From positions 14,761 through 78,760 of the forward strand of contig CAJFLB010000002.1 in the NCBI GenBank assembly GCA_904387305.1: a stretch of 64,000 nucleotides of DNA. The letters are read 5' to 3'. Positions 4,371 to 35,659 of this stretch are shown piece by piece; positions within the stretch are counted from its first letter, which is position 1; each line of letters opens with the position of its first letter. Under the pieces are notes generated by a model that had not been told where the DNA came from, made no database searches, and worked only from the letters and a program-made list of their open reading frames with translations. The translations under genes and the position numbers were made by a program. The DNA is from an uncultured Clostridia bacterium. Its GTDB lineage: Bacteria > Bacillota > Clostridia > TANB77 > CAG-508.

Positions 4371-5345
4371 CTATATTTCTATTTGAAAATTACCATACCT
4401 ATTATAGAAACTCTTATTTTGTAAAGTAACATATGTCTCATTATCTAATATCATCCTAGAGAAAACAAGTTTATCAATTCGTTTTTCAGAACCATATCTG
4501 CAATAATATTTTATTTCTAATTCTCTTGTCTCTCTAGGGTTTATTGTAAGTTGTGCTTTACTTAATTCATGTGTATATGCTGCATATTGAATTCCATTAT
4601 CATCTTCAATATACATAGCCTCTATATTTACTCCATCATCTAATACAATTGTATTGTCAGAATTATTTGTAATTTTAATTTTATATTTTTGATAATCCAT
4701 ATAACTATCTTCTTCTTGTACTTCTATTGTTATATTATCTTGTTCTTTAGATTTCTTTATTTCTTCTCTTCCAATATATCCATTAATATTTAATTGATAT
4801 TGTCCATCTTTTTCTACTACAGTTATATGGTCTTGAATTGTATTTTCTTTAGAATATTTACCTGTTGATAAAAAATCTTCATTTATATTTACCTTATATA
4901 TGTTACTTATCCAATTTTCAACTGTTACATTTTTTGTTTCATTGTTAAATACTTGATTATAATAACTTTGTTGAAAATCTTCTAACGTAGGATACATTTC
5001 TTCTTTGCACTCTTGTGTTAATAAATCATAGGCTTCTTGCAAATTTCCATTATTACAAAAACTAATAAAGTTATCAATTATCCCCACTTGTGTTTTCTGT
5101 CCTTCAGAAATTGGATTTCCCGTCAAACTTGAGTTGGCATCATCTACTCGTACACTATTCAAATTATCATTAATCATAGTTGTATTCGTAATACTTTGTA
5201 TATCCGCATTTCTTAACTCTTTTTCGTTCTGCCTCTTATAAAAATAATTAATTAGCTGTATAAGTCCAATAATGATGGCAACTATCGCTATATATTTCCA
5301 TATTTTTTTCCTATTTTGATTATACCATCTAACAAATCTATTCAT
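4371..5345 (-). CDS. Membrane-anchored (N-terminal TM) extracytoplasmic protein. Possible VirB8/TcpC-like T4SS component.
   Basis: 324-aa ORF tightly packed in the operon. One TM near the N-terminus followed by a ~280-aa soluble domain. Architecture only, no motif recognised. Confidence 0.35.
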   Translation of the reverse strand: MNRFVRWYNQNRKKIWKYIAIVAIIIGLIQLINYFYKRQNEKELRNADIQSITNTTMINDNLNSVRVDDANSSLTGNPISEGQKTQVGIIDNFISFCNNGNLQEAYDLLTQECKEEMYPTLEDFQQSYYNQVFNNETKNVTVENWISNIYKVNINEDFLSTGKYSKENTIQDHITVVEKDGQYQLNINGYIGREEIKKSKEQDNITIEVQEEDSYMDYQKYKIKITNNSDNTIVLDDGVNIEAMYIEDDNGIQYAAYTHELSKAQLTINPRETRELEIKYYCRYGSEKRIDKLVFSRMILDNETYVTLQNKSFYNRYGNFQIEI

Positions 5346-5357
5346 TGCTATTTTCTC

Positions 5358-6743
5358 CTATTCTATACTAAATGACATGACAAAATCTGTTCCTTCTAAT
5401 AATTTCATAATAATAGTAATGTTTTTCTGTTCTGACTGGTCTTCTGCTGCATTTTTTATTTTTGCTCTATATATATATGTATCTCCTTCTTCAGAAAATT
5501 CTAAATATTCTATGTCATTTTCCTCATAAAAGTTTTCTTTCATATATACTCTAAAGTTTTCTAAACTTCCATATGTATTATTTCTAAACGTTTCATCTAA
5601 TCTATTATATACATATCTATAATCTCCATCATTTATAGCATCTAATACTTTTTCTACATTCATTCCAACTTTTGTTGATATATCTGCTGGATCATACTTT
5701 TGTGTAAAATCTATTAGGTCAACCGTATATGTGTCTAAAATAACACTATAATCTGTTAAAGATCTTTCAATAAAAATATAATAATGATCATTTGCATCTA
5801 AACACACATATTCTTTATATTCTTCAAATTGATTAATTAGATATTTCGATAAATAGTTACTTTTCAAACTATCATAATTTTGTTCTACATATTCTGTAAA
5901 TTCTTGCTGACTTTCATATTTATTTTCTCTATATTCTTTATCTAACATGTCATATGCAGATTCTACTTGATGTAATAATTTGGTTTGATATTCTGAAAAA
6001 TATTGATTAACTATATATTGATCATTAGTGTTTACATAATCAAAATGATTATAATTATTGGATGTCACACTGTTTGTATCAATTTCTATTTTTGCTATTT
6101 GTGTATCTTTGTTATATTCTCTACTATTCAAATATTCTTGTCCAAACATAGAATATGTATCATTTTGCATATCTAACTTAATAAGTAAATTTTCTTCTAT
6201 ATCATTTATTGTAAATTTTGTTAAAATCAATTTTATTTGAGTTGATATATCTCCTTCATATATTTCTTCTATTTTTAGATTATAATTTACATTTTTCGTA
6301 TAATCTCCTTGCTGTATATATTCTTGTACAGCCTCACGAATACTGTCTTCTGTAAGCTTTACCTCTTCTACATATTGTTCATCAAACATATGATATATGG
6401 CATCAATCGCTTCTTCTTCTAATATTGTAATAATTTCTTCTCTGGATTGTTGTAGTTTTCCAGTTTCAATATATTCATCACCATTTGCTTCTTTGATCAT
6501 GGTTATATAATTATTCAATATTCCTTTTACTGTATAATATATATCATAATTCTCCACTTGTTTAAATGTTTGTGGTGACGAAGTTTCCACCGTTTCATTT
6601 ATCTGCTGTGATGAATTTGCATTTTCAGTTCCTTGCGTATTTCTTTGAAAAAGAAGGATACATATTATTCCTATCATTATAAAAAAAATGACAAGTAATA
6701 ATATAATTTTCATCTTTTTATTTGAATTTCCTAATTTTCTCAC
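5358..6743 (-). CDS. Membrane-anchored acidic hypothetical protein of the T4SS operon.
   Basis: 461-aa ORF with an N-terminal hydrophobic segment and an Asp/Glu/Tyr-rich ectodomain. Operon context. Confidence 0.4.
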   Translation of the reverse strand: MRKLGNSNKKMKIILLLVIFFIMIGIICILLFQRNTQGTENANSSQQINETVETSSPQTFKQVENYDIYYTVKGILNNYITMIKEANGDEYIETGKLQQSREEIITILEEEAIDAIYHMFDEQYVEEVKLTEDSIREAVQEYIQQGDYTKNVNYNLKIEEIYEGDISTQIKLILTKFTINDIEENLLIKLDMQNDTYSMFGQEYLNSREYNKDTQIAKIEIDTNSVTSNNYNHFDYVNTNDQYIVNQYFSEYQTKLLHQVESAYDMLDKEYRENKYESQQEFTEYVEQNYDSLKSNYLSKYLINQFEEYKEYVCLDANDHYYIFIERSLTDYSVILDTYTVDLIDFTQKYDPADISTKVGMNVEKVLDAINDGDYRYVYNRLDETFRNNTYGSLENFRVYMKENFYEENDIEYLEFSEEGDTYIYRAKIKNAAEDQSEQKNITIIMKLLEGTDFVMSFSIE

Positions 6744-6855: not shown

Positions 6856-9555
6856 CTAATGTAAATTTTTCTTTATTTTATCAAAATCTGTGGTTAAACC
6901 TGTAATTCTATTTGCTTTCTCTTTTGCTCTTTGTTCGCTTGCACCAGCTTTTTGGAATTGTTCTGTATATCCTCCTCTTATATCTTTCTTATCTTTGTCT
7001 TTTTGTCTATCGATATCTCCATATTTGTCATGTGCATCAAACACTAATAAAGCATCATTAAAGCTTATATCATCATTTTGCTCTTGTAATTTTTCCAATG
7101 CAGCAATATCTTTTGGACTTGTAACTTCATTTTTTAAATACTTATCAATTTTTCCACTCTTATATAACTCTTTAGTCTTTTCTACTCCCAATTGTCCTTC
7201 TATAACTTCTCTCTTCTTTTCATCTTTTTTCCACTTCTTTATTCTTTCTTCTGCTAAATGTCTATCATAATCTTCTCCCCAAAAAGCTCTTTCTCTTGCA
7301 ATTTGTGCTGCTGATTTTGTTTGTGTTGGTGGATTCGTATCTATTCTTGAAGCTCCTAAAGCTCCTCCTGCAAGAGCTGCTCCTCCTGCAAATGAAGCTG
7401 CTTTACTTGGATCTCCTGTTGCAATACCAATGGTTGCTCCTGCAACTGCTGCTGTTGCCCCCAATGCTGCTCCTGCTGCTAATTTTGCTCCTGTTCTAAT
7501 AGCCTTTGGTGCCACTTGTTTTAATTTTCTAGGCATTTGTTTTGTTGCTGTAAATTTTGCAGTTCTTCCTAATCTTTGTAAAAAGGCTTTATTTTCTGCA
7601 GCATTTGCACTCATTCTATCTCTGACTCCTTGTGGTCTACGTATCGTTTGCCTACTTCCATTTGCTTGCTGTGGAGCCCTTGCTTGGCTTCTATTACTAT
7701 TTGAATTTAATCTAATTGGTGTATTATCCTCTTCCTCTTCATCACCATCTTCTTCATCTGTTGGATTTGTATTTCCATTCATAGCAAATCTGATTGGTCC
7801 ATTATTATCTTCATCTGTTGGATTTACATTTTCACGTGTATTTAATCTACTTTGCTCATCATGATTTTGTGCATCATCCCCATTATTCGTATCTCCCATT
7901 AATTCAGCAATATCTTCATCTGAATATCCAGAATCTCTTAATATTTGTTCATATTCTTCATCAGAATATTGCCTTCCTCCGTCATTTCTATATGCTTCTC
8001 GTGCCATTTGATCCCTTTCCGCCGGATCCCAATCTTCTGTACCATAATTATCATCATAAGCATCTAGCATGGCTTGTTGGGCTGTTTCTCCCTCACCGTT
8101 TTCACTATCTTCCTCATTATTATCATTATGTCCCATTCTTAGTAATGCATTATCATCCTCATCTTCTTCATTATTAGCATTCCATCCTATTCTAGGTGAT
8201 GAACTATTCTCATCATCTGAATCGTTACCACCTTTTCCTTTACCATTGCTTCCTCCTGGTTTCCTATGTAAGACTTTTTGTAAGCCTGAATTCAACATAG
8301 CAGCCCCTGCAGCTGCACCTGCAAAAGAACCTGGTGTACTTGCTTTTTCGAATCCGAAGAAACTACGCATCAATTTTTCTGCTGGAATCATAAATCCGAT
8401 AGCTACTAAAGAATATACTACATTTGTTGATGCTAATTCATAAGCTGATGTTACTAGTACAGTATATAGCAATAAATGTAATGGCTGTAACAATAAATTG
8501 AATATATATTCTTTTAACCATCTATTAAATCCTTGTGCTTGTCCATCACTTATCTTATCTATAGGATATGTTAAAGCAACTAATGGTGCTATCATTGTTA
8601 AAAAAGCCATATATAGTACCCTTCTTAAATATACAAATGTAAAATATACTGTAAATAGTACTAACATAACATAACATAATCCATATCCAACAAAAGCCAT
8701 ATCTCCATAACTAACTTGTGCTTTTAATCTTAACATTCCCATCAAGTTCGTTGGCCAGATAATTTGCGCTGGATTTGTACTCTCATCAACCAAATTAGCC
8801 ATACCTAACTCTTTTAATTTATCTGAAATATATTTATCATCATCATCTTCCATTAGTACGACTTGGTCAAAACCGTCAAGATGACCTAGTTCTCCATTTC
8901 CATCTACATTTCTTATCGCATCTTCTAAATCAACTACACTTGGTTGTGTTGTGGCAATAATATCATTAAACGCTTCAACAATTTCTACTGAAAAGACCAT
9001 GATATAATGCATAAAAAACAATAAACATACACCTACCACCCAATCAAAAAGCATTTGCTTATATTTTGCTTTTTCTTGTGATACAGATGCTAATAACATT
9101 CTGATTCCTACATATAGTAATACTGACATAGATGCTACAATTGCAATATTTCTGATGGCACTATACCATTGACTAACTAATGGTTGTAAATCTAAAGCAG
9201 TATTTTGTCTTGAGGTAATAACTTCCTCTCCATCTTCATTTATATAGAAATAATATTTTACTTTTTCTTCTATCGTTGTGGATGTTGCATTTCCAGCATC
9301 GTCATGCCCTGTTTCTGGCTCTTCATCAGTATGATCTATGTACTCCATTAATTCATCTGTAACTAAAATAATTCTTCCTTCTTCTGTTTCAGTTCTAGTT
9401 TCTATTTGCCCTGCTAGGTAATATGTTGTTATTGTTCTCGTTATCTCTGTTTTTGCATATACACTTCTTTGCGGATTAAAAAAATTAACATCAAATAATA
9501 AAATCTGTCCACTAAATATTTCCTCTGGTGAAAGTGAAAATAATGGCAAAAACAT
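6856..9555 (-). CDS. VirB6/TrbL-like polytopic membrane protein with a long disordered Asp/Glu/Asn/Gly-rich insert, an Ala-rich hydrophobic segment and a Lys/Glu-rich C-terminus.
   Basis: 899-aa ORF. 6 or more predicted TM helices in the N-terminal half. Sits between the VirB4-like gene and the hydrolase genes, as VirB6 homologues do in Firmicutes T4SS loci. Confidence 0.5.
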   Translation of the reverse strand: MFLPLFSLSPEEIFSGQILLFDVNFFNPQRSVYAKTEITRTITTYYLAGQIETRTETEEGRIILVTDELMEYIDHTDEEPETGHDDAGNATSTTIEEKVKYYFYINEDGEEVITSRQNTALDLQPLVSQWYSAIRNIAIVASMSVLLYVGIRMLLASVSQEKAKYKQMLFDWVVGVCLLFFMHYIMVFSVEIVEAFNDIIATTQPSVVDLEDAIRNVDGNGELGHLDGFDQVVLMEDDDDKYISDKLKELGMANLVDESTNPAQIIWPTNLMGMLRLKAQVSYGDMAFVGYGLCYVMLVLFTVYFTFVYLRRVLYMAFLTMIAPLVALTYPIDKISDGQAQGFNRWLKEYIFNLLLQPLHLLLYTVLVTSAYELASTNVVYSLVAIGFMIPAEKLMRSFFGFEKASTPGSFAGAAAGAAMLNSGLQKVLHRKPGGSNGKGKGGNDSDDENSSSPRIGWNANNEEDEDDNALLRMGHNDNNEEDSENGEGETAQQAMLDAYDDNYGTEDWDPAERDQMAREAYRNDGGRQYSDEEYEQILRDSGYSDEDIAELMGDTNNGDDAQNHDEQSRLNTRENVNPTDEDNNGPIRFAMNGNTNPTDEEDGDEEEEDNTPIRLNSNSNRSQARAPQQANGSRQTIRRPQGVRDRMSANAAENKAFLQRLGRTAKFTATKQMPRKLKQVAPKAIRTGAKLAAGAALGATAAVAGATIGIATGDPSKAASFAGGAALAGGALGASRIDTNPPTQTKSAAQIARERAFWGEDYDRHLAEERIKKWKKDEKKREVIEGQLGVEKTKELYKSGKIDKYLKNEVTSPKDIAALEKLQEQNDDISFNDALLVFDAHDKYGDIDRQKDKDKKDIRGGYTEQFQKAGASEQRAKEKANRITGLTTDFDKIKKNLH

Positions 9556-10037: not shown

Positions 10038-12026
10038 CTATCTATCTTGTTTTCTTTTTGCTAATTTATTTAAATTTGTTTCTACAAATTCAAATTCTTT
10101 TCTCGTTGGTACAATTTTTAATATAGCTGTATCTGATCCAACTTTTAGTAGCCCTTCACCTTTTTGACATGTAACTAAAAATCCTGCTTCTCCTTCTGAT
10201 AATTTGAATACTTCTTTCAAATATTGAATTTCTGATTTGTCTTGTGCCAAGAATAATTTTGTATCTGATGATGTTAAAACAGCTTGTGCTTCTGGTTTCT
10301 CATAAAAATCTTGGAATCTTTGAGAAATAATCGCTAAAGATACATTTCTTTTTCTAGCACGTCTAGCCATTTTATTTAAAAAGTCTACAGCTTCTGGGTA
10401 TGGAAGTAACATCCATGCCTCATCTACCAAAACTCTTTTTTGCGTAGCTTTTCTTCTGTCTTCACTATTTTTCTTAACAAATTTTTCCCAAATCCATGAA
10501 AGCAAAATTTGTTGTGCAAGTGGTCTTGCAAATCTTTCCTCTAATTGTGATATGTCCAAATTAATAAATGGTGCTCCCTCTAGTAAATCAAATGTAGATT
10601 GTCCATCAAAATATGCCATTTGTCCATCATATTCCCTTACATATTGTCTCATAACTTTTAACAAATAACTATAATGGAATTGATAGTCTGGGTTTTTATT
10701 GTCTCTAGCTTTTTCTTGAATTCTTTTATACCAACTACCAATTGTTGGCATTTCTTTTTTCTCTTTTTCGAATAAATTGTCTCCTCGTAATCCCATATTG
10801 GCTGTTTTGTATAAACTGTTAGGATTATTCGTAATTCCTAAACTTGCATATTCTTCTGCTACTGATTCAGCAATGATCTGTTTTGTTAGCTCATTTACTT
10901 CTGTACTTCTTGTACTTCCTTTTGCCATTGTAAGTAAAGCTTGCGTAACGTCTTCTACTTTATTTTCAATATTTAAGACTGTTCTTTCTTTTCCTGTAAT
11001 TTCGTCTTTCACTCTTTCCACTTCTACATCAAATAGATTGATAACCGTTTGAGAATTTGGACTAATCACAACATTGATTCCACCTAAACTTTCAGCAACA
11101 ATGGTATACTCACCTTCTGCATCAAGTGCTAAACTTTCTATTCCCATCAATACAGATGATCTAGATACTAATGTTTTCATTGTAACAGATTTTCCAGCAC
11201 CAGATTTAGCAAATATAACCATATTATAGTTTGTCAATGATGGATGGAAATTATCAAATAATATTGGTGTTCCTGTCTGTTTATTAAATCCGATAGGAAC
11301 TCCAGTTTCATGACCTACTTCAGAAGTTGTAAATGGAAATACAGTTCCCATTGAATTTCTGTCGAAAGTATGTAATTTTTTTACCTTATCTTCCATTAAT
11401 GGTAAATTTGATTGGAATGCTTCTTCTTGTATTCCCCATGCTGTTTTTATATTTACTAGTGTTTTTGACATCTCAGAAGTTAACATTTTCGTGTCTCTAT
11501 CTAAATCATCTAAATTGTATGCAAAAAGTGTTGCTATAATAGATGCTTCATATAATTTATTAAATCCTGCTGCAATTTCGTCTCTCAATTGTTCAGCTTC
11601 TAATCTTTTTTGTGTAATTGTACTCTCTCTATTGATGTTTCCTTTGTCCATAGCTACAATTCTTTCTGTTTCCAATTCATTAATAACTCTATTTAATTCA
11701 TTCTGTGATCTTTCTTCTTTTATTGGATTAATAAATATAGATGTGTTAATATCTCCAAAAAGATATAAATCTCTAAATAATTCTGGGAAAGTACACATTC
11801 TTGGCAATTGTGAAACAAAAAAACTTCTAGCATATCTTTTAGTATTTGATATAATTTCTAAATGATCTATATTACTAGCATCAATTCCTGATGGTGCTAT
11901 TAATTCTTTGATTGTTTTCTTTCTTAAGAAACTAACCTTTTCTTTCTGTATTGGTTCTTCTTTAACAGTTTCTTTCTTTTTACCAAACATTTTCTTTCCT
12001 CCTTTATTTAGCTTTTTTCTTATCAA
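10038..12026 (-). CDS. VirB4-family conjugative transfer ATPase (PrgJ/TrsE/TcpF-like).
   Basis: 662 aa. Walker A IFAKSGAGKSVTMKTL. Walker B-like VLVDEAWMLL. N-terminal YARSFFVSQLPR...INTSIFINP region typical of Gram-positive VirB4 proteins. Paralogous to the ORF at 35660..37378 (shared ...SGAGKS...IDPEREY/LDAEGEY block). Confidence 0.8.
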   Translation of the reverse strand: MIRKKLNKGGKKMFGKKKETVKEEPIQKEKVSFLRKKTIKELIAPSGIDASNIDHLEIISNTKRYARSFFVSQLPRMCTFPELFRDLYLFGDINTSIFINPIKEERSQNELNRVINELETERIVAMDKGNINRESTITQKRLEAEQLRDEIAAGFNKLYEASIIATLFAYNLDDLDRDTKMLTSEMSKTLVNIKTAWGIQEEAFQSNLPLMEDKVKKLHTFDRNSMGTVFPFTTSEVGHETGVPIGFNKQTGTPILFDNFHPSLTNYNMVIFAKSGAGKSVTMKTLVSRSSVLMGIESLALDAEGEYTIVAESLGGINVVISPNSQTVINLFDVEVERVKDEITGKERTVLNIENKVEDVTQALLTMAKGSTRSTEVNELTKQIIAESVAEEYASLGITNNPNSLYKTANMGLRGDNLFEKEKKEMPTIGSWYKRIQEKARDNKNPDYQFHYSYLLKVMRQYVREYDGQMAYFDGQSTFDLLEGAPFINLDISQLEERFARPLAQQILLSWIWEKFVKKNSEDRRKATQKRVLVDEAWMLLPYPEAVDFLNKMARRARKRNVSLAIISQRFQDFYEKPEAQAVLTSSDTKLFLAQDKSEIQYLKEVFKLSEGEAGFLVTCQKGEGLLKVGSDTAILKIVPTRKEFEFVETNLNKLAKRKQDR

Positions 12027-13164
12027 TTATTTTTTTAGCGTCTTTCACCACATCTTCTCCTAATATTTGTTCATTCTCATCTAATAAGTCTTTGGCCATT
12101 TCATTAATCAACTGATTCATTCTTTCTTCCCTTTGTTTTGCTCTTCTTACTTTATCTTGATTCATCATAGCTTCTACCGCTGCATCATTTGCTGTTATAT
12201 TTGCTTGTGTACTAATTTCTGCATCTATTTCTTCCATTCTTTTATCTAATACATTTTTAGCTGTTGAATATAATTCATCAACACCAGCTTTTAATGCATT
12301 ATCTAATTGATATGTTTCTGATTCATCTCTGTTATATGCTATATAAAGTAACTCAGCTAATTCTTCGCTATCTAGCACTTTTCCTGCTACATCACACACC
12401 CCTAAAGAACTTATCAGTGCTTGTGCTTTTGTATATAAATCAGAAAAAGCCATACTTTTTATTTCTTCTGCATCATATCCTGCATTAGTATTTTCTTCTG
12501 GAACATGTGATAAAACAACATAATAGTGTTTTTTCAATATGTTCTTATTCAAATTCATTTTTTCAGTATTATTAACAATGTCTAATCCATATTCATACAA
12601 GTTCTGCGCTTTTACTAATTCAAATCTAGCATTGTTTATTTCCCTAGCTGTATATTCGTCTGTATTTATCATTGAATTATATTCCATTTGTTTTCTCATA
12701 TATTCATTTCTGATGCTATTTACTCTAGTTTTGTATCTGTTGATACTGCTTCCTAAATTAACAGTTCTTGTTTGAATATATAATTGTATTGGATATCTTA
12801 AAGTATTTAAGAATTGTAAGAAGCCTTGCTCAACACTATTTTTCTCTAATCCAGACATCAAATCATAGTTAACTCCTTGACATTCAATTACCATGATGTA
12901 TTGTCTTCCATTTTTTCTAACAATCATATTATCTTCAATTTTATCAAATTCCATAAAACTAAAAATCGAATTTTTCGTATATTCAATATCTTTTTTTACA
13001 TTTTTATTCTCTTCTGGCATCTTATTATTTCCTATACGATCTGATTTACTTTGACTTTTCTCTTTAAACATTAAGACAAGAAGTACAATTAGTAATACAA
13101 AAAACACACTTACTAATACGACTAAACTAATTGTCAAAAAGTTGCTTATTTGATTATCACCCAT
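12004..13164 (-). CDS. N-terminally membrane-anchored coiled-coil protein of the T4SS operon. One segment weakly resembles the N-terminal domain of Tn916-ORF16-type VirB4 proteins.
   Basis: 386 aa. TM at residues ~12-34. Segment YIMVIECQGVNYDLMSGLEKNSVEQGFLQFLNTLRYPIQLYIQ resembles YIKILEVTPINYNLKSDLEKEAILNSFKIFFRTCQFDIQILIQ of the ORF at 34962. Confidence 0.4.
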   Translation of the reverse strand: MGDNQISNFLTISLVVLVSVFFVLLIVLLVLMFKEKSQSKSDRIGNNKMPEENKNVKKDIEYTKNSIFSFMEFDKIEDNMIVRKNGRQYIMVIECQGVNYDLMSGLEKNSVEQGFLQFLNTLRYPIQLYIQTRTVNLGSSINRYKTRVNSIRNEYMRKQMEYNSMINTDEYTAREINNARFELVKAQNLYEYGLDIVNNTEKMNLNKNILKKHYYVVLSHVPEENTNAGYDAEEIKSMAFSDLYTKAQALISSLGVCDVAGKVLDSEELAELLYIAYNRDESETYQLDNALKAGVDELYSTAKNVLDKRMEEIDAEISTQANITANDAAVEAMMNQDKVRRAKQREERMNQLINEMAKDLLDENEQILGEDVVKDAKKIIDKKKAK

Positions 13165-13516
13165 GATTCATGTCCTCCTCTTTCCAAATATACACTCTAT
13201 TTTTTTTCCTTTTAAAATTTATCCATCTTTTCGCAACATCATCTATATTTTCTCCACCAGTTTTTCTTGCAAACTCAAATTTTTTATTATCTGGAATCTT
13301 AAATGTTCCTATGCAAAATCCAATTGCTCCAAAAATAACATCTACGATAATTCCCGCAAATTGCATTCCCAAAGCATTTAGTATAAAATAAAATAATAAA
13401 CCTACTCCCATACCGACCATTGTATAAATTAAAGCCTTTGTAGAAAAGACATATAATATTCTACTTTCTCCTTTATAATTTCTAGGTATTTCATATGTTT
13501 TCATTTGTTTTCTCAC
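13157..13516 (-). CDS. PrgI/VirB3-like small membrane protein.
   Basis: 119 aa. Two adjacent TM helices (YTMVGMGVGLLFYFILNALGMQFAGIIVDVIFGAIGFCIG). Located just upstream of the VirB4-like gene, as PrgI-family genes are. Confidence 0.5.
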   Translation of the reverse strand: MRKQMKTYEIPRNYKGESRILYVFSTKALIYTMVGMGVGLLFYFILNALGMQFAGIIVDVIFGAIGFCIGTFKIPDNKKFEFARKTGGENIDDVAKRWINFKRKKNRVYIWKEEDMNHG

Positions 13517-13669
13517 TCCTTTTTATCCATTTCCACTTATATATAATTATAACATAAAATCCCCCTAAAAGTACATATATATACAAAAAAAAACAATTTT
13601 AATTATATTGTAATTGATATGTAATCCTTTTGTAATATTTATTCTGTTTTATGTAACTGTGGGAGACAA

Positions 13670-13715
13670 AAAATAGAACTTGGTTTTCGAAATAAACCAA
13701 GTTCTATTTTTATAT
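13670..13715 (-). terminator. Rho-independent terminator after the pilin-like gene array.
   Basis: Hairpin atagaacttggtt-tcgaaataa-accaagttctat flanked by T/A runs. Confidence 0.55.
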
Positions 13716-13727
13716 TTCTTACTTTCA

Positions 13728-14084
13728 TTAAACACCTAGATTAGATGTAAAGTTGAATACAAATGTTGCAATTGTTGAAGCCGCAAATACAAATGCTGCA
13801 CCAATGATGTATGGTAATAATGTCTTTTTGTATTCTGCTTTTTCTTCAGCACTACCCATCATGTATTTTATACCTAAAACAACCAAAACAATAACTGATG
13901 CAATAGAACCAATAGTACTTACAATTTGAATAATTTGGTTACCCACAGTATTAATTGCTGTAACAGATGCTCCTCCTCCAGTATATGTAGTTGGTGAAAT
14001 TCCTGATGACGCTGCGTTAACAGTCACTGTTAATGCTAACAATAATATCATTGCAACTAATAATATTTTTACCGTTTTTTTCAT
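13728..14084 (-). CDS. VirB2/TrbC-like pilin-family protein, tandem paralog 1. Signal peptide, hydrophobic helix, charged loop, hydrophobic helix.
   Basis: 118 aa. Conserved core IVSTIGSIASVIVLVVLGIKYMMGSAEEKAEYKKTLLPYIIGAAFVFAASTIATFV shared with the next three genes. Confidence 0.5.
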   Translation of the reverse strand: MKKTVKILLVAMILLLALTVTVNAASSGISPTTYTGGGASVTAINTVGNQIIQIVSTIGSIASVIVLVVLGIKYMMGSAEEKAEYKKTLLPYIIGAAFVFAASTIATFVFNFTSNLGV

Positions 14085-14161
14085 AGTTCTTCCTCCTTTT
14101 ATTTATATTCCTTTTGTATTTTAGGATTTGTATATTTTCCCTTTATTTCATTATAGCACTT

Positions 14162-14521
14162 TTATAAATTTATTGCAACATTATATACAATTGTTGCAAT
14201 TGTTGAAGCTGCAAATATAAATGCCGCTCCTATAATGAAAGGTAATAATGTCTTTTTATAACTTGCCTTTTCTTCAACGCTTCCTAACATATACTTTATT
14301 CCTAAAACAATAATAACAATTACAGACAATATGGATCCCACAGTGCTTACGATTTGTACAATTTTGTTACCAGCTGTCGAAACATCTGATGTTCCTGTCG
14401 TATCTCCTGTAAGTCTTTCAATCGTAAGTGCTGCATTTACATCATTGGGCAACCATATTGATATTATAACACTAATTAATATGATGCTTATCATTATTTT
14501 TAAAAATTTTTTTAATTTCAT
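14162..14521 (-). CDS. VirB2/TrbC-like pilin-family protein, tandem paralog 2.
   Basis: 119 aa. Same two-helix core (GIKYMLGSVEEKASYKKTLLPFIIGAAFIFAASTIATIV). Divergent post-signal N-terminal region. Confidence 0.5.
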   Translation of the reverse strand: MKLKKFLKIMISIILISVIISIWLPNDVNAALTIERLTGDTTGTSDVSTAGNKIVQIVSTVGSILSVIVIIVLGIKYMLGSVEEKASYKKTLLPFIIGAAFIFAASTIATIVYNVAINL

Positions 14522-14532
14522 CTATCTACTCC

Positions 14533-14916
14533 TTATTGAATTATATTTATAACTAATTTCCAGATTGAAAAAGCTCCAAATACAACTATACAGGATACAA
14601 TATAGGCTGGTAATGTTTGTTTTATATCTGCTTTCTCTTCTGAAGTTGCTAGCATATATTTAATTCCTAAAACCATTCCTATAATAACAGCCATAATCAT
14701 GCTAATTCCTAATAATATATTATATAAAAGATCAGATGTATCACCTAGTGTCGTATCATCTATTGTTGCATTAACTCCATCTTGTCCTCCTCCTATATCT
14801 AAAAAATTGTCAGCTCCTGCAAATATTTCATCAATTGATAAAGCTTGTACATTTGTTGGATATATTACTATAAGAAATAGAGTTAAGATACATACAAAAA
14901 TTATGATTTTTTTCAT
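14533..14916 (-). CDS. VirB2/TrbC-like pilin-family protein, tandem paralog 3. The most divergent.
   Basis: 127 aa. Signal peptide, acidic Asp/Gly/Thr-rich variable region, then the GIKYMLATSEEKADIKQTLPAYIVSCIVVFGAF core. Confidence 0.45.
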   Translation of the reverse strand: MKKIIIFVCILTLFLIVIYPTNVQALSIDEIFAGADNFLDIGGGQDGVNATIDDTTLGDTSDLLYNILLGISMIMAVIIGMVLGIKYMLATSEEKADIKQTLPAYIVSCIVVFGAFSIWKLVINIIQ

Positions 14917-14939
14917 ATATTTCCTCCTTCCATTTCTTT

Positions 14940-15335
14940 CTAAAATCCTAATACAATACTTTGAACAATTCCTAAAAGATTTGTTATTCCAAATAACATA
15001 ATTGCTCCAATTAAATATGGTTTTAATGTTTGTTTATATTCTGCTTTTTCTTCTACACTACCCATTACATATTTTATACCAATAAGAATAAGTGCAACAA
15101 CAGAACTAATAGACCCTATAACTTGTACTATTCCAATAATGTCATTTCCTATTTCCTCCAATCTTGTCGCTCCACTTACACTACTAGTTGAGGTTGGTTT
15201 ATACTCTTCTGGGTTAAATGTTTTTTCTTCCGTTCCTTCACCCATATTTTGAGCTTGTACTGTTTGACTAACAGTAAGAAGGCATATTATAAAAATAATA
15301 CAAATGATAACAATTTTCTTTTTATCTATTTTCAT
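14940..15335 (-). CDS. VirB2/TrbC-like pilin-family protein, tandem paralog 4.
   Basis: 131 aa. Core GIKYVMGSVEEKAEYKQTLKPYLIGAIMLFGITNLLG. Longer Glu/Thr/Ser-rich variable region. Confidence 0.5.
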   Translation of the reverse strand: MKIDKKKIVIICIIFIICLLTVSQTVQAQNMGEGTEEKTFNPEEYKPTSTSSVSGATRLEEIGNDIIGIVQVIGSISSVVALILIGIKYVMGSVEEKAEYKQTLKPYLIGAIMLFGITNLLGIVQSIVLGF

Positions 15336-15534
15336 TTCAACACCTTCCTTTCAAATAATTCATTTTTATTTCTTTTTTACTGTTTAATTTAATTATACTC
15401 TATTTCTTATAAATTATCAAGATATTTTGCTGTAAATCTCTTTTATCTTAATATAAAAAAAGATTTTTGTAAATACATATTTGTCGAATTTTAACAAAAA
15501 AATAATATAAAGTAACAATACTTTATATTATCTT

Positions 15535-15624
15535 TGGCGGAGATGAGAGGGTTCGAACCTCCGCGCCCCTTTCGGGACCTAACTGTTTAGCAAACAGTCC
15601 CCTTCACCACTTGGGTACATCTCC
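15535..15624 (-). tRNA. tRNA-Ser (anticodon GCT). Long variable arm. CCA encoded.
   Basis: Reverse complement folds as a cloverleaf: GGAGATG acceptor, anticodon loop TTGCTAA, T-arm GGTTCGAACC. Confidence 0.85.
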
Positions 15625-15684
15625 ATATAAATTTATTTATAAATAAAAGTTAGATATTATGATATTATCTAACTCTTATGTTAT

Positions 15685-15776
<92 letters not shown>

Positions 15777-15863: not shown

Positions 15864-17333
15864 TTATTCATATATTTCAAAACCTGCTATTTCACCAACA
15901 TATTTTTTTGTATTTTTTACATGTTCTTTTACCTTTTCACTTTCTTGGTAAATACTTTCATCTTCGTTTTTATAAATTAAAAATTGGACATTTTTCATAT
16001 TATCTACTTTTTCTATTAATCCATCTTCTCCTTCAATACCAAGATTTCCTTTAAAAGGTAAATCAAAATCACCATTATTTCTTTTTAATGGTACCATATA
16101 TAATGCTGCCCTATTAGAAAATACAATTACGTTTTTTTCATTTTCTTCTATATATTTCACAACTTTTTCATTTTCTTCATATTCTTCTCTTCCTAGCATG
16201 CCACCAAAAAAAGGATATTCCCATGAATAAGGATAATCATTATTTGTTATGGATTTAACCCAAACATTCAAATTGTAGCAAGAAAAAATAATCATAGCAA
16301 AAATAATAACTCCATTGACCACTTTTAATATTTTCGTTATTCCTTCTTTAAAATCTTCAAATACTAGATATACCATATATACTACATTTATGATCATCAA
16401 ATATGTTCCAATTATAATATGTGTCCAATTGAAAATCGGATAACATACAATGGAAAGCATGATCGAAAATATTAGCAATATTTTTATGTTCTCTATTTGC
16501 TTTTCTGTTAAAAAATTCTTTTTTATAAAAAATATACTCATTCCTATATTAATAGTTATAATACCTATCATAAATACAATAGCAGAGGACTCAAAATTTA
16601 GATTTTCATTTGCAAATTCTAATATACCACCTAAAGTGTAATTAAAAAAGTTATATAAATTATTATCCATTATTAGATATAAGACAAATATGATTCCACC
16701 TAGTAAAACAACACCTATATATTTAAATATTTCTATTAGCTTATTTTTAATATCTTTTTTTGAAATACTTAAATATATTATACTCCCTAATAGATAATAT
16801 ATCCCTATATTTTGCTTAGTTAATATGATTAAAATTGTTATAATAGATTGAATAAGTATATTCTTCCTCGTTTTTTCATTTATCAGATAATATGTACCTA
16901 TTACAAAAAACAACAAAGCCATATTATTATAATTAAAACTTGTTCTAATCATTAAAAAGAATTCTTGTAAGCATATCACTAATACTGCTAACAAGGAAAG
17001 TGTTTTGGGTATCTTCAACTTTTTTAGAATTTTATAAGTCATTAAAAATAATATGGACATGAAAGCACAATGACTAATTCTAAAAATGCATAAATTTGCT
17101 CCTAGCAAATGAAATATTCCTTCAGCTATCCAAAAAAATAATGGTGTTATAATGACATTTATCTCTTCATATATTTTAAATCCATTATACATTTTATATA
17201 CATTTTGAAAATTCCATATTTCATCATTTGATTCTAAATAAATATTTAAACTAATTCCTAAAGAAATAAGAAAAAATAATATAAAAACTGCTATATTATC
17301 TTTCCTTTTTATTTTTTCAATTATATTTTTCAT
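15864..17333 (-). CDS. Polytopic membrane protein, probable GT-C fold glycosyltransferase (ArnT/PMT-like).
   Basis: 489 aa. About 12 TM helices. DE motif in the first extracytoplasmic loop (ESNDEIW). 4-nt overlap with the upstream DUF4446 gene. Confidence 0.4.
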   Translation of the reverse strand: MKNIIEKIKRKDNIAVFILFFLISLGISLNIYLESNDEIWNFQNVYKMYNGFKIYEEINVIITPLFFWIAEGIFHLLGANLCIFRISHCAFMSILFLMTYKILKKLKIPKTLSLLAVLVICLQEFFLMIRTSFNYNNMALLFFVIGTYYLINEKTRKNILIQSIITILIILTKQNIGIYYLLGSIIYLSISKKDIKNKLIEIFKYIGVVLLGGIIFVLYLIMDNNLYNFFNYTLGGILEFANENLNFESSAIVFMIGIITINIGMSIFFIKKNFLTEKQIENIKILLIFSIMLSIVCYPIFNWTHIIIGTYLMIINVVYMVYLVFEDFKEGITKILKVVNGVIIFAMIIFSCYNLNVWVKSITNNDYPYSWEYPFFGGMLGREEYEENEKVVKYIEENEKNVIVFSNRAALYMVPLKRNNGDFDLPFKGNLGIEGEDGLIEKVDNMKNVQFLIYKNEDESIYQESEKVKEHVKNTKKYVGEIAGFEIYE

Positions 17334-33947: not shown

Positions 33948-34299
33948 CAGTAAAGCTAATAATAATCGCAGTTAAAACCAAGATACATAATTTTCAAATC
34001 TAGCATATATTACTATATGCGTAAACTTTAAACCACATATATTAATCATTCGCTTGACCATTAATACACCACTAACAACTAAATTCATCCAATAAAAAGG
34101 ACTACTAATAATCATTAGAAGATATAAGAATAATCGTAACTAAGATACATTACATATTATTTTGCCACAATACAGATTATAAAAAGAAAATCTAAAATAA
34201 AAATATAGCATACAAACAAGTAATATATTCACGTCGCCAACATATTATAATATTAAAAAACACCATAATACATTTTTGCTCAAATAATAATAAACGAAT

Positions 34300-34900: not shown

Positions 34901-34918
34901 TTTGTCAAAAAGTTTTTC

Positions 34919-34947
34919 TTGACAACCAATGTAAAATATTGTAAAAT
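34919..34947 (+). promoter_or_regulatory. Near-consensus sigma-A promoter for the split VirB4 gene.
   Basis: TTGACA (34919-24), 17-bp spacer, TAAAAT (34942-47). AAGGAG just downstream. Confidence 0.45.
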
Positions 34948-34961
34948 TCAGCATAAGGAGT

Positions 34962-35540: not shown

Positions 35541-35659
35541 AAGGAGGAATTAATATAGAATTAAAAAAAATAATAACAAGAAATAATAAAGAAAAAAATT
35601 TATCTATTTTAGAAGGAACAATATTTGAAAAAGATAAAATTTCTCCAGCATATATTAAT

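What the first reader, a model, noticed from the sequence alone, without database searches (positions are those of the whole stretch)
13728..15335. Four tandem VirB2/TrbC-like pilin paralogs with a conserved two-helix core and hypervariable mature N-termini, in a Gram-positive T4SS locus
All four share a signal peptide and the core ...IVSTIGSI.SVIV.VVLGIKYM.GS.EEKAEYKKTLLPYIIGAAF.FAASTIAT..., which is helix, basic loop, helix. This is the topology of VirB2/TrbC pilins. The 25-45 residues between the signal peptidase site and helix 1 differ completely in length and composition: Gly/Thr-rich, Asp-rich and Glu/Ser/Thr-rich versions. MPF-FA/FATA type IV systems of Firmicutes are generally considered pilin-less. 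A four-gene pilin-like array at the head of the operon, plus a fifth copy at 51017, suggests a diversified surface filament or adhesin set, or secreted substrates of the system.
Basis: partly seen in the sequence, partly recalled or inferred. Interest (0 to 1): 0.7.

Follow-up and report, generated by a model that had tools for sequence, protein, structure and literature searches.

The report
Four-pilin array in clostridial T4SS
Four neighbouring small genes really do encode VirB2/T4SS-pilin-family proteins at the head of a type IV secretion gene cluster that sits at one fixed place beside the chromosome's replication origin in 78 uncultured gut Clostridia assemblies, which matters because Gram-positive type IV systems are generally described as having no pilins.

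Summary
Four tandem minus-strand genes (15335-13728) each encode a signal peptide, a variable segment and a conserved helix-loop-helix core. All four pass Pfam's cut-off for PF18895 T4SS_pilin, and two also pass PF04956 TrbC/VirB2.

They head a cluster: pilins, PrgI (VirB3-like), a 386-aa protein, VirB4, an 899-aa VirB6-like protein that starts with a pilin-like module, two single-pass membrane proteins and a giant cell-wall hydrolase.

This is not a mobile element. The same gene order recurs in 79 loci from 78 species-representative assemblies, all uncultured gut Clostridia. It lies behind a tRNA-Ser pair, usually next to parB and about 12 kb from dnaA. No relaxase or integrase was found in the window. 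The coupling protein is encoded 36 kb away in a second conserved locus.

The N-termini are specific to each paralog type rather than random. They are still the fastest-evolving part, even against a relative at about the species boundary.

The "fifth copy" is not a copy. It is a remote, highly conserved pilin-like protein.

The closest described parallel is the origin-proximal, relaxase-less T4SS with VirB2 arrays in Patescibacteria. Filament formation is inferred, not shown. Fold searches could not discriminate.

The parts
15392..15420 (-). sigma-70-like promoter candidate for the pilin array (TTGATA-17-TATAAT)
   Evidence: Matches 11 of 12 consensus positions and ends 57 nt upstream of the first pilin ATG. 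A consensus match only.
14940..15335 (-). pilin paralog type 1 (131 aa). Mature N-terminus QNMGEGTEEKTFNPEEYKPTSTSSVSGATR.
   Evidence: PF18895 29.8 bits (cut-off 26.6); PF04956 26.6 bits (cut-off 27.9). Predicted signal peptide plus two hydrophobic helices. 47 of 65 first-position genes in four-gene arrays are of this type.
14533..14916 (-). pilin paralog type 2 (127 aa), the most divergent, with an Asp/Gly-rich N-terminus LSIDEIFAGADNFLDIGGGQDG...
   Evidence: PF18895 28.6 bits, above cut-off; PF04956 19.1 bits, below. 44 of 65 second-position genes are of this type. The N-terminal motif is conserved among relatives.
14162..14521 (-). pilin paralog type 3 (119 aa). N-terminus ALTIERLTGDTTGTSD.
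   Evidence: PF04956 42.1 bits and PF18895 37.6 bits, both above cut-off. 58% identical to type 4.
13728..14084 (-). pilin paralog type 4 (118 aa), the most conserved and the candidate major subunit. N-terminus ASSGISPTTYTGGGASVTA.
   Evidence: PF18895 43.7 bits and PF04956 42.7 bits. More than 4110 homologues. 59 of 65 last-position genes are of this type. Lowest dN/dS of the four pilins against L014 and L012, 0.13-0.15. AlphaFold2 gives a helical hairpin, pLDDT 75.
13669..13711 (-). intrinsic-terminator-like hairpin (18-bp perfect stem plus U-run) directly after the last pilin gene
   Evidence: (-25 kcal/mol, z = -5.5). By a loose criterion, 69 of 77 related loci have a hairpin plus T-run between the last pilin gene and PrgI; many lie 20-30 nt past the stop codon and have different stem sequences.
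13157..13516 (-). PrgI-family (VirB3-like) membrane protein
   Evidence: PF12666 27.4 bits (cut-off 27). Follows the pilin genes in every related locus that extends that far.
12004..13164 (-). 386-aa single-pass membrane protein between PrgI and VirB4, in the position of TrsD/TraC in pGO1/pIP501-type systems
   Evidence: Single N-terminal hydrophobic segment. The orthologue in L004 carries a precomputed PF26593 'TraC-like' hit. No Pfam hit in the local copy. No detectable similarity to VirB4.
10038..12026 (-). VirB4-type ATPase
   Evidence: PF19044, PF12846 and PF01935. 81-99% identical across the related species tabulated, with dN/dS 0.02-0.03 against three relatives. The nearest plasmid homologue is 43% identical, on Clostridium botulinum plasmids.
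6856..9555 (-). 899-aa polytopic, VirB6-like protein with an N-terminal pilin-like module (residues 128-185) and a large C-terminal hydrophilic part
   Evidence: hhalign against the pilin profile gives probability 87%, E 4e-6. PF18895 E 2.6e-4. Several hydrophobic segments. Diverges fast: 41% aa identity against L014, which is 96% nt identical in the housekeeping genes.
5358..6743 (-). 461-aa single-pass membrane protein, a variable T4SS accessory
   Evidence: Single N-terminal hydrophobic segment. Detected in only some related loci.
4371..5345 (-). 324-aa single-pass membrane protein, a conserved T4SS accessory (a VirB8-like role is possible but untested)
   Evidence: Single N-terminal hydrophobic segment. 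Present in most related loci.
751..4350 (-). 1199-aa multidomain cell-wall hydrolase (VirB1 analogue)
   Evidence: GDSL, Peptidase_M23, Phage_lysozyme2 and NlpC/P60 domains. Found at this position in the related loci long enough to reach it.
15535..15776 (-). tRNA-Ser(GCU) and tRNA-Ser(UGA) pair that bounds the cluster on the origin side
   Evidence: The same pair precedes the array in 29 of 29 related loci tested.
15864..17333 (-). PMT_2 (GT-C) glycosyltransferase. A possible but untested partner of the Ser/Thr-rich pilin N-termini.
   Evidence: PF13231. 82% aa identity against L014, whose neighbouring genes are 99-100% identical.
51357..52931 (-). VirD4-type coupling protein, encoded apart from the main cluster
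   Evidence: PF10412 and PF12696. 69-98% identical among the 120 best of 5727 homologues. The gene order T4CP, small protein, 291-aa protein, DnaB_2, DnaI-like, gyrA is conserved in other assemblies, and the 98-103-aa ORF was called in L087/L088 but not in L089/L090.
   Evidence: PF18895 23.1 bits, below the 26.6 cut-off. hhalign against the array family gives probability about 1%. The mature part is nearly invariant across species.
50133..51008 (-). 291-aa polytopic membrane protein, possibly VirB6-like
   Evidence: Weak TrbL/VirB6 hit, E 0.11. Several hydrophobic segments. Conserved next to the coupling protein.
49812..50123 (-). 103-aa small membrane protein of the second locus
   Evidence: Hydrophobic segments. 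A 98-aa ORF occupies this position in L087/L088; none was called there in L089/L090. No family hit.

Best explanation
The four genes encode paralogous subunits of the VirB2/TrbC-T4SS_pilin superfamily. They belong to a type IV secretion apparatus that is a fixed chromosomal feature of a lineage of uncultured, low-GC gut Clostridia. It is not cargo of a conjugative element.

Shown:
- Family membership and topology: signal peptide, variable segment, helix, charged EEKAxYK loop, helix.
- The gene order pilins, PrgI (VirB3-like), 386-aa protein, VirB4, VirB6-like protein, hydrolase.
- The same order in 79 loci from 78 species-representative assemblies, behind a tRNA-Ser pair and usually next to parA-parB-DUF4446, about 12 kb from dnaA.
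- Strong purifying selection on VirB4.
- Much faster change, with signs of allele replacement by recombination, in the pilins and in the 899-aa, 461-aa and 324-aa proteins downstream of VirB4.
- No relaxase or integrase among the window ORFs scanned.
- The coupling protein is encoded in a second conserved locus on the other side of the origin.

Inferred mechanism. The precursors are exported by Sec and cut by signal peptidase I after V-x-A. They then sit in the membrane as two-helix hairpins with both ends outside. VirB4, with the VirB3-like protein, extracts them and stacks them on the VirB6-like protein, whose own N-terminal pilin-like module may seed the assembly. The product would be a short filament or conduit through peptidoglycan opened by the giant hydrolase.

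The last gene (type 4) is the likely major subunit: it is the most conserved, gives the strongest family match and is followed by a terminator-like hairpin. Types 1-3 would be minor or alternative subunits. Their Ser/Thr- or Asp/Gly-rich N-terminal segments would lie on the outer surface and diversify between strains.

The promoter-plus-hairpin arrangement would give high pilin expression with limited read-through into the machinery genes. By analogy with Patescibacteria, the system most likely serves a lineage-wide cell-to-cell or uptake/export function rather than transfer of a mobile element.
For: Family and topology:
- Pfam: all four pass the PF18895 cut-off and two pass PF04956.
- A distant, sub-threshold match to the Mycoplasma ICE pilin-like family NF045849.
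- Signal-peptide and two-helix features; AlphaFold2 hairpin model, pLDDT 75.

Context and conservation:
- PrgI, VirB4 and hydrolase follow the array. The order VirB2-VirB3 is also seen in true virB operons.
- The VirB6-like protein carries a pilin-like N-terminal module, as reported for the archaeal pair CedA/CedA1 and for VirB6/VirB2.
- Of 79 loci from species-representative assemblies, all that extend far enough show the same gene order: 71 of 71 with enough downstream sequence have PrgI and VirB4, 45 of 56 with enough upstream sequence have the parB/DUF4446 block, and the array has 4 genes in 50 and 3 in 9 of 59 complete loci.
- The tRNA-Ser pair precedes the array in 29 of 29 loci tested.
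- dnaA, dnaN, recF and gyrB are confirmed, and GC skew switches sign near 27 kb.

Evolution:
- VirB4 dN/dS is 0.02-0.03; pilins 1-3 give 0.13-0.64 and p899 gives 0.45-0.56.
- Against L014, dS in the T4SS block is 0.27-0.86 versus 0.02-0.16 in the housekeeping genes.
- Variation concentrates in the mature N-terminus: 38-68% identity there versus 76-93% in the core against L014; across the lineage 0.20-0.31 versus 0.52-0.63.

Expression signals and second locus:
- Promoter candidate and terminator-like hairpin.
- The coupling-protein locus keeps its gene order in other assemblies.

Literature parallel: Patescibacteria have VirB2 arrays of 2-11 genes with PrgI, TrsD, VirB4 and VirB6 near dnaA, mostly without a relaxase and with the coupling protein often distant. 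The array is essential in Southlakia.
Against: - A profile search of PDB sequences finds no pilin.
- Direct hhalign against an Agrobacterium-type VirB2 alignment is in register but not significant (probability 0.3%).
- Signal-peptide cleavage was judged by rule of thumb only.
- A topologically identical small protein of a Gram-positive T4SS, TraB of pIP501, is essential for transfer, and its authors considered it unrelated to pilins. A membrane-resident role is therefore a real alternative.
- Absence of a relaxase was checked only within this 64-kb window and by gene lists of related loci.
- 11 of 56 loci with enough upstream sequence lack the parB/DUF4446 block directly upstream.
- The monoderm envelope is assumed from the NCBI taxonomic labels, not tested.
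Confidence: 0.6

Rival explanations
1. The four proteins are membrane-resident channel or assembly subunits of the T4SS, like the small signal-peptide-bearing two-helix protein TraB of pIP501. They never polymerise into an extracellular filament. The paralogs would build a hetero-oligomeric ring or liner of the translocon.
For: The topology is the same as described for TraB of pIP501, which is essential for conjugation. The pilin-like module is also built into the polytopic 899-aa protein. The literature holds that monoderm conjugation works without pili. Fold searches give no specific match to solved pilins.
Against: The proteins pass the Pfam cut-offs of pilin families. A buried membrane subunit would not be expected to carry a fast-diverging, Ser/Thr-rich external N-terminal segment. 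Four paralogs, a separate promoter candidate and a terminator-like hairpin suggest a high-copy structural subunit. No NCBIfam match to CagC/TraB-type families was returned. VirB2 itself is needed for transfer in Gram-negative systems even where no pilus is made, so the two readings are not exclusive.
Confidence: 0.3
2. The cluster is an ordinary integrative conjugative element inserted at tRNA-Ser. The pilin-like genes serve mating-pair formation for its own transfer, and its recurrence reflects repeated site-specific integration rather than vertical inheritance.
For: It lies directly downstream of tRNA genes, a classic integration site. The nearest plasmid relatives carry the same module. The T4SS block shows higher dS than its flanks and host-incongruent divergence, for example in L027.
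Against: No integrase or relaxase among the scanned ORFs of the window. The coupling protein lies 36 kb away in another conserved locus. Gene order is identical in 78 assemblies, with VirB4 81-99% identical and under strong purifying selection. GC content does not differ from the flanks. The elevated dS is better explained by allele exchange at a fixed locus.
Confidence: 0.07
3. The genes encode unrelated small membrane proteins (holins, bacteriocin precursors or immunity proteins) or substrates secreted by the T4SS, and the Pfam matches reflect hydrophobic composition only.
For: The proteins are short and hydrophobic. Structure searches return only generic hairpins. hhalign against Agrobacterium VirB2 is not significant.
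Against: No holin, bacteriocin or immunity family match in Pfam, NCBIfam or PHROGs. Pfam pilin E-values reach 3e-11 and span the whole model. The genes are always linked to PrgI and VirB4. PF18895 genes occupy the same position in related plasmid clusters.
Confidence: 0.03

Closest known systems
Patescibacteria (CPR) chromosomal T4SS with VirB2-like pilin arrays (Southlakia epibionticum, TM7x; Quinonero-Coronel 2025, PMC12102498; review PMC12857230)
   Same: Tandem arrays of divergent VirB2-like genes (2-11 there, 3-4 here). Association with PrgI/VirB3, VirB4, a VirB6-like protein and a protein in the TrsD position. Location near dnaA. No relaxase nearby. Coupling protein encoded elsewhere. 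Fixed chromosomal system conserved across a lineage.
   Different: The host is labelled Clostridia/Bacillota in all 79 records, not Patescibacteria. Paralogs are more alike here (30-58% versus a mean of 25%). [quoted passage not shown] Whether the two systems share direct ancestry was not tested, and essentiality is unknown.
VirB2/TrbC conjugative pilins of Gram-negative T4SSs (Agrobacterium VirB2, RP4 TrbC; Pfam PF04956)
   Same: Cleavable leader, two hydrophobic helices joined by a short charged loop, and a gene placed just before virB3-virB4.
   Different: The loop is longer and carries a conserved EEKAxYK motif. There is a 16-35-residue variable mature N-terminus. No cyclase or TraF-type peptidase gene was seen. 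No outer-membrane components (VirB7, VirB9, VirB10) or VirB5 were detected. Direct profile comparison with Agrobacterium-type VirB2 is not significant.
Bartonella Trw and Anaplasma T4SSs with multiple variable VirB2 copies
   Same: Tandem amplification and sequence variation of the pilin gene within a T4SS locus, interpreted as surface variation.
   Different: Those are Gram-negative intracellular pathogens with recent duplications. Here the paralog types are old and mostly keep their position in the array, and the host is a gut anaerobe.
T4SS modules on large plasmids of cultured Firmicutes (C. botulinum pINGR16-02E1, C. perfringens pJFP838A, Thermoanaerobacterium pMU3262, B. thuringiensis BTB_502p, a C. 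difficile BI1 300-kb record)
   Same: The same order: small pilin-like gene, PrgI, ~320-aa protein, VirB4 (DUF87), large membrane protein, giant hydrolase. VirB4 is 29-43% identical. The small genes of three of these plasmids (four genes) score above the PF18895 cut-off.
   Different: They carry one or two pilin-like genes rather than a four-gene array. They are plasmid-borne. The genes are annotated only as hypothetical proteins, and tblastn of the window pilin against all plasmids finds nothing.
TraB of pIP501 (Enterococcus), a small T4SS protein with a cleaved signal sequence and two transmembrane helices
   Same: The same predicted topology and placement within a T4SS gene cluster. TraB is essential for transfer.
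   Different: Its authors found no relevant relation to VirB2. No sequence link to the present family was found or directly tested. It is a single gene with no variable N-terminal segment described.
Archaeal Ced/Ted DNA-import pili (CedA1/TedC with CedA and CedB)
   Same: VirB2-like pilins working with VirB4 and VirB6 homologues in a cell without an outer membrane. The VirB6-like protein starts with a pilin-like region.
   Different: Archaeal hosts, DNA import demonstrated there, and no recognisable sequence similarity claimed here.

Membership tests
Pfam PF18895 T4SS_pilin | Whole-protein score at or above the curated gathering cut-off (26.6 bits) | tested here: met
   43.7, 37.6, 28.6 and 29.8 bits for the four array genes. 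The 51017 gene scores 23.1 bits and fails.
Pfam PF04956 TrbC/VirB2 pilin | Whole-protein score at or above the gathering cut-off (27.9 bits) | tested here: inconclusive
   Met by 13728 (42.7) and 14162 (42.1). 14940 narrowly misses (26.6). 14533 fails (19.1).
VirB2-type conjugative pilin | N-terminal leader cleaved by signal peptidase | tested here: inconclusive
   K/R-rich n-region, hydrophobic h-region and a V-x-A motif at residues 24-30 in all four. No dedicated predictor or proteomics was available.
VirB2-type conjugative pilin | Two hydrophobic helices joined by a short charged loop | tested here: met
   Hydropathy analysis. AlphaFold2 helices at residues 42-76 and 79-116. Invariant K, E and E/K positions in the loop.
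VirB2-type conjugative pilin | Gene placed next to virB3 and virB4 homologues | tested here: met
   PrgI and VirB4 follow the array, in 71 of 71 loci with enough downstream sequence. Compare VirB1-VirB2-VirB3 in Agrobacterium-type plasmids.
VirB2-type conjugative pilin | Detectable profile similarity to experimentally characterised VirB2 | tested here: not met
   hhalign of the family alignment against three Agrobacterium-type VirB2/TrbC proteins gives probability 0.3%, E 0.18, although the alignment is in register. Both alignments have low diversity, so the test is weak.
VirB2-type conjugative pilin | Fold match to solved pilin structures | tested here: inconclusive
VirB2-type conjugative pilin | Polymerises with phospholipid into an extracellular pilus | not testable with these tools
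   Needs microscopy, biochemistry or multimer modelling.
Patescibacteria-type chromosomal T4SS | Tandem array of divergent VirB2-like genes near virB4 | tested here: met
   Four genes at 30-58% identity, 1.7 kb from virB4. Arrays of 3-4 genes in related loci.
Patescibacteria-type chromosomal T4SS | Chromosomal, near the replication origin, with no relaxase nearby and the coupling protein often distant | tested here: met
   dnaA lies 12 kb away. No relaxase domain in the scanned ORFs. The coupling protein is at 51357-52931.
Patescibacteria-type chromosomal T4SS | TrsD homologue next to VirB4 | tested here: inconclusive
   A 386-aa protein occupies that position, and its L004 orthologue has a precomputed PF26593 'TraC-like' hit. 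There is no hit in the local Pfam copy and no similarity to VirB4 by hhalign.
Patescibacteria-type chromosomal T4SS | VirB4 falls in or next to the Patescibacteria VirB4 clade | not tested
   No Patescibacteria sequences could be obtained.
MPF-FATA-type conjugative T4SS of a mobile element | PrgI-family protein, VirB4 and a membrane-anchored multidomain hydrolase | tested here: met
MPF-FATA-type conjugative T4SS of a mobile element | Linked relaxase, coupling protein and element boundaries (integrase, variable presence) | tested here: not met
   No relaxase or integrase among the scanned window ORFs. The coupling protein is unlinked. The cluster sits at the same site in 78 assemblies.
Holin / bacteriocin / immunity proteins | Match to a corresponding family model | tested here: not met
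   None in Pfam, NCBIfam or PHROGs.

The most novel reading that the evidence does not exclude
A whole lineage of bona fide Firmicutes (uncultured low-GC gut Clostridia) runs a domesticated, origin-proximal T4SS that builds a multi-pilin surface filament or conduit. It would be the same design as the essential Patescibacteria system.

Three things would follow. Gram-positive T4SS pili exist. VirB2-like pilins were already part of monoderm T4SSs, because PF18895 genes also head the related clusters on Clostridium, Bacillus and Thermoanaerobacterium plasmids; this would answer the open question of where the Patescibacteria pilins came from. And these gut bacteria may depend on T4SS-mediated contact with other cells.
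Probability: 0.3. Interest if true: 0.9.

Novelty: new variant of a known kind. Interest (0 to 1): 0.72.

Why it matters
Reviews up to December 2025 state that VirB2 pilins are absent from Gram-positive T4SSs, with Patescibacteria as the only exception. Here a pilin-family array is an integral, strongly conserved part of a T4SS in 78 assemblies labelled Clostridia.

Single pilin-family genes, annotated as hypothetical proteins, also head homologous clusters on plasmids of cultured and genetically tractable Firmicutes: B. thuringiensis Bt407, C. perfringens and Thermoanaerobacterium. The old question of whether monoderm T4SSs use pilins or pili therefore becomes directly testable in the laboratory.

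The finding also gives a candidate source for the Patescibacteria pilin arrays. And it points to an unrecognised, probably important surface machine in abundant uncultured gut bacteria. Its exposed parts diversify between close relatives, as capsule or pilin loci do.

Tried and rejected
- **PDB sequence profile search.** Only designed membrane proteins were found.
- **tblastn of the pilin against all plasmids.** No match.
- **hhalign of the family against Agrobacterium-type VirB2.** Not significant.
- **hhalign of the 51017 protein, alone or as an alignment, against the array family.** Not significant. The 'fifth copy' was rejected as a paralog.
- **hhalign of the 386-aa protein against VirB4**, to test TrsD-like remote homology. 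Nothing found.
- **Exact look-ups of window proteins in the assembly index.** Not on record.
- **Inverted repeats that would suggest a shufflon or invertible switch in the array.** None beyond the terminator-like hairpins.
- **Holin or bacteriocin reading.** Rejected, with no family hits.
- **GTDB placement of the host lineage.** It could not be established. Literature searches for UMGS1711 and for TANB77 with T4SS gave nothing useful.
- **Literature searches for earlier reports of VirB2-family genes in Firmicutes T4SSs.** These found only the Patescibacteria papers.


Full report

Four ORFs lie head to tail on the minus strand at 15335-14940 (131 aa), 14916-14533 (127 aa), 14521-14162 (119 aa) and 14084-13728 (118 aa). 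Each is preceded by an AGGAGG-like ribosome-binding site. Identity to the last gene is 58%, 30% and 45%. At DNA level the core-coding part is a 207-nt direct repeat at 76% and 63% identity.

Each protein starts with a K/R-rich stretch, then a hydrophobic stretch and a V-x-A motif at residues 24-30. A polar segment follows, then two ~30-residue hydrophobic segments separated by a charged loop. Genes 1 and 2 keep it in degenerate form. The polar segment is about 16-35 residues rather than 25-45.

**2. What family are they?**

All four exceed Pfam's curated cut-off for PF18895 (T4SS_pilin): 43.7, 37.6, 28.6 and 29.8 bits against a cut-off of 26.6. The two most similar genes also exceed the cut-off of PF04956 (TrbC/VirB2), at 42.7 and 42.1 bits against 27.9. 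NCBIfam gives sub-threshold matches to the Mycoplasma ICE pilin-like family NF045849. No holin, bacteriocin or immunity family appears in Pfam, NCBIfam or PHROGs.

Membership therefore rests on three things: the Pfam models, the topology and the gene context.

**3. Context in the window**

Downstream on the same strand lie these genes:
- a PrgI-family (VirB3-like) protein at 13516-13157;
- a 386-aa single-pass membrane protein;
- a VirB4 ATPase at 12026-10038;
- an 899-aa polytopic protein;
- two single-pass membrane proteins of 461 and 324 aa;
- a 1199-aa hydrolase with GDSL, M23, lysozyme and NlpC/P60 domains.

Residues 128-185 of the 899-aa protein match the pilin profile (hhalign probability 87%, E 4e-6). 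The same relation between a VirB6-like protein and its pilin has been reported for archaeal CedA/CedA1 and for Agrobacterium VirB6/VirB2.

A good sigma-70-like promoter candidate lies 57 nt upstream of the first pilin gene. A perfect 18-bp hairpin with a U-run follows the last one. By a loose criterion, 69 of 77 related loci have a hairpin plus T-run between the last pilin gene and PrgI. Many lie 20-30 nt past the stop codon and have different stem sequences.

Upstream are tRNA-Ser(GCU) and tRNA-Ser(UGA). Then come a PMT_2 glycosyltransferase, DUF4446, parB, parA, rsmG, mnmG, mnmE, jag, yidC and rnpA. On the other strand are dnaA (27302-28654), dnaN, recF and gyrB, and the GC skew changes sign at about 27 kb. 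The array is therefore about 12 kb from the replication origin.

No relaxase or integrase domain was found in any ORF scanned.

**4. Related sequences**

The last pilin has more than 4110 homologues, and all 120 listed carry both Pfam domains. A profile search of 1.84 billion cluster representatives finds 6155 clusters at E <= 1e-3 and 3999 at E <= 1e-10.

A scan of one genome per GTDB species found 375 matching stretches. The best 79 loci come from 78 assemblies, all labelled uncultured Clostridia, Clostridium, Eubacteriales or Bacillota. Their sources are human, rabbit, chicken and mouse gut. The loci have a median GC of 28.6%.

In every locus that extends far enough the gene order is the same: [mnmE-mnmG-rsmG-parA-parB-DUF4446-(PMT_2)]-pilins-PrgI-386aa-VirB4-899aa-(461aa)-324aa-hydrolase. 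The counts are:

| Feature | Count |
|---|---|
| PrgI and VirB4 downstream, where enough sequence is available | 71 of 71 |
| parB/DUF4446 block directly upstream, where enough sequence is available | 45 of 56 |
| Array of 4 genes, in loci with both flanks | 50 of 59 |
| Array of 3 genes, in loci with both flanks | 9 of 59 |
| tRNA-Ser pair preceding the array | 29 of 29 tested |

This is the signature of a vertically inherited chromosomal system, not of a mobile element.

**5. How the paralogs evolve**

Paralog type largely tracks position in the array. In four-gene arrays, type 1 is first in 47 of 65, type 2 is second in 44 of 65, and type 4 is last in 59 of 65. The duplications are therefore old.

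Each type has its own N-terminal motif, recognisable among relatives:
- type 1: FNPEHYKPSSTSSVSGA;
- type 2: LSIDDIFTGADNFLxKGGGQ;
- type 3: ALTIGxLTGNTxGT;
- type 4: ASSGVAPGxYTGGGASV.

"Hypervariable" overstates the case. Even so, this segment is the fastest-evolving part. Mean pairwise identity across the lineage is 0.20-0.31 there, against 0.52-0.63 for the core.

Locus L014 comes from a genome at roughly the species boundary with the window. Housekeeping DNA is 96% identical, and ParB, ParA, RsmG and DUF4446 are 99-100% identical at protein level. Even so, the pilins are only 63-88% identical over their full length. The mature N-termini are 38-68% identical and the cores 76-93%. The 899-aa protein is 41% identical, while VirB4 is 97-99%.

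dN/dS is 0.02-0.03 for VirB4. It is 0.13-0.64 for pilins 1-3 and 0.45-0.56 for the 899-aa protein. Against L014, synonymous divergence in the T4SS block is 0.27-0.86, several-fold above the flanking housekeeping genes at 0.02-0.16. Some genomes, such as L027, combine near-identical ParB with very divergent T4SS proteins.

I read this as exchange of alleles by recombination at a fixed locus, as happens at capsule or pilin loci, together with relaxed or diversifying selection on the exposed parts.

**6. The "fifth copy" and other T4SS parts in the window**

The 51017-51406 protein scores below the PF18895 cut-off. It shows no significant profile similarity to the array family. Its mature part is almost invariant between species. 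It does share the loop motif: GDEEKIRTGKK against SAEEKAEYKK. It is a remote relative at best, not a variable copy.

It lies between a VirD4-type coupling protein (52931-51357) and a 291-aa polytopic protein with a weak TrbL/VirB6 match. The order coupling protein, small protein, 291-aa protein, DnaB_2, DnaI-like, gyrA is conserved in other assemblies. A 98-103-aa ORF after the 291-aa gene was called in L087/L088 but not in L089/L090. The coupling protein is 69-98% identical among the 120 best of 5727 homologues. The apparatus is thus split into two conserved loci on either side of the origin.

A third VirB4-like gene (35660-37378) sits in an extremely AT-rich island between gyrB and gyrA. That island is present in close relatives but not in a more distant one.

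**7. Relatives in cultured bacteria**

The nearest plasmid VirB4 proteins are 43% identical (C. botulinum plasmids) and 42% (C. beijerinckii). Others are 29-33% identical, in Thermoanaerobacterium, C. perfringens, C. difficile, Paenibacillus and B. thuringiensis.

Their clusters share the order small ORF, PrgI, ~320-aa protein, VirB4, large membrane protein, giant hydrolase. The small ORFs are all annotated as hypothetical proteins. Several match PF18895 above its cut-off:
- C. perfringens pJFP838A: 30.2 bits;
- Thermoanaerobacterium pMU3262: two adjacent genes, 36.5 and 38.1 bits;
- B. thuringiensis BTB_502p: 31.7 bits.

The C. botulinum and C. difficile genes fall just below the cut-off. Pilin-family genes are therefore a regular but unremarked part of this class of Firmicutes T4SS cluster.

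**8. Comparison with the literature**

Guglielmini et al. 2014 found no pilin homologues in MPF-FATA and noted that monoderms lack VirB2. Beltran et al. [quoted passage not shown] The pLS20 family paper says the same. The December 2025 nomenclature review states that VirB2 and VirB5 are not found in Gram-positive T4SSs, with Patescibacteria as the one exception.

In Patescibacteria, arrays of 2-11 divergent VirB2-like genes accompany PrgI/VirB3, TrsD, VirB4 and VirB6. They often lie near dnaA, mostly without a relaxase, with the coupling protein often distant. The array is essential in Southlakia. The present system matches that description point by point, but in genomes labelled Clostridia.

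TraB of pIP501 is a small protein with a cleaved signal sequence and two helices, essential for transfer. Its authors judged it unrelated to VirB2. It is the basis of the main rival reading. Full-text searches found no report of VirB2-family arrays in Firmicutes.

**9. Most likely mechanism**

These steps are inferred. Sec exports the precursors and signal peptidase I cleaves them, leaving a membrane pool of two-helix hairpins. VirB4 with the VirB3-like protein extracts them. They stack on the VirB6-like protein, whose own pilin-like module may act as the seed. The filament or conduit passes through peptidoglycan opened by the multidomain hydrolase.

Type 4 would be the major subunit and types 1-3 minor or alternative subunits, with their N-terminal segments on the outer surface. 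The coupling protein would deliver a substrate that is still unknown.

Because the system is fixed, origin-proximal and lacks a nearby relaxase, I favour a lineage-wide cell-contact, uptake or export function over transfer of a mobile element.

Confidence differs by step. I put about 0.85 on these being T4SS pilin-family components of a conserved chromosomal T4SS, about 0.45 on their forming an extracellular filament, and 0.6 on the composite statement. The rivals and the tests that would decide between them are listed in their own sections.

**10. Verdict**

It is wrong on the fifth copy and overstated on hypervariability. The larger finding is the conserved origin-proximal system. It is a new variant of a known kind, and it contradicts a widely repeated generalisation.

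Noticed in passing
window 34000-44000 (between gyrB 31958-33886 and gyrA 45161-47620): An ~11-kb island with GC of only 9-19% and no Ns, full of A-rich low-complexity tandem repeats. It carries a second VirB4-like ATPase (35660-37378, PF19044 E 1e-19) and Lys/Ile/Asn-rich ORFs (34962-35540, 37371-38429). About 150-nt units recur near 39330-39480 and 39955-40100. A VirB4-like gene next to gyrA is also present in the close relatives L089/L090 but not in L087.
   Followed up: partly
window 49812-52931: A second conserved T4SS-related locus: VirD4-type coupling protein, a remote pilin-like 129-aa protein, a 291-aa polytopic protein with a weak TrbL/VirB6 match, and a 103-aa membrane protein. It sits directly next to DnaB_2/DnaI-like replication genes and gyrA. 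The order is kept in other assemblies, except that the small last ORF was called only in L087/L088.
   Followed up: yes
window 15864-17333: A PMT_2 (GT-C) glycosyltransferase lies just upstream of the tRNA-Ser pair and the pilin array. It diverges along with the pilins: 82% aa identity against L014, whose neighbouring genes are 99-100% identical. The pilin mature N-termini are 17-27% Ser/Thr. This suggests O-glycosylation of the pilins, which was not tested.
   Followed up: no
window 6856-9555, residues 128-185 of the product: The 899-aa VirB6-like protein begins with a module homologous to the pilin core, including the EKAKYK loop motif. The equivalent proteins of a C. botulinum plasmid and of L004 show the same weak PF18895 hit.
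   Followed up: partly
L091, L093, L094, L095, L096 (plasmids of C. botulinum, C. perfringens, C. difficile, Thermoanaerobacterium, B. thuringiensis): Genes annotated 'hypothetical protein' just upstream of PrgI-VirB4 clusters match PF18895, with those from three of the plasmids scoring above the cut-off. MOB-suite types all five plasmids as non-mobilizable.
   Followed up: partly
L019 and L077 (contigs 6 and 20 of assembly CAKPPS01): One metagenome-assembled genome contributes two separate copies of the whole pilin-T4SS locus. This is either a real duplication or two strains binned together.
   Followed up: no
proteins P0249-P0252, P0329 and others from the representative search: Some database proteins contain 2-5 pilin modules in one polypeptide of 200-450 aa. 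These may be true tandem fusions or read-through gene calls.
   Followed up: no
L027 compared with window 751-24217: Housekeeping proteins are 85-99% identical (ParB 99%), but the T4SS proteins are far more divergent: pilins 40-62%, PrgI 56%, the 386-aa protein 49%, VirB4 81%. The T4SS locus seems to be exchanged or to evolve independently of its flanks.
   Followed up: partly
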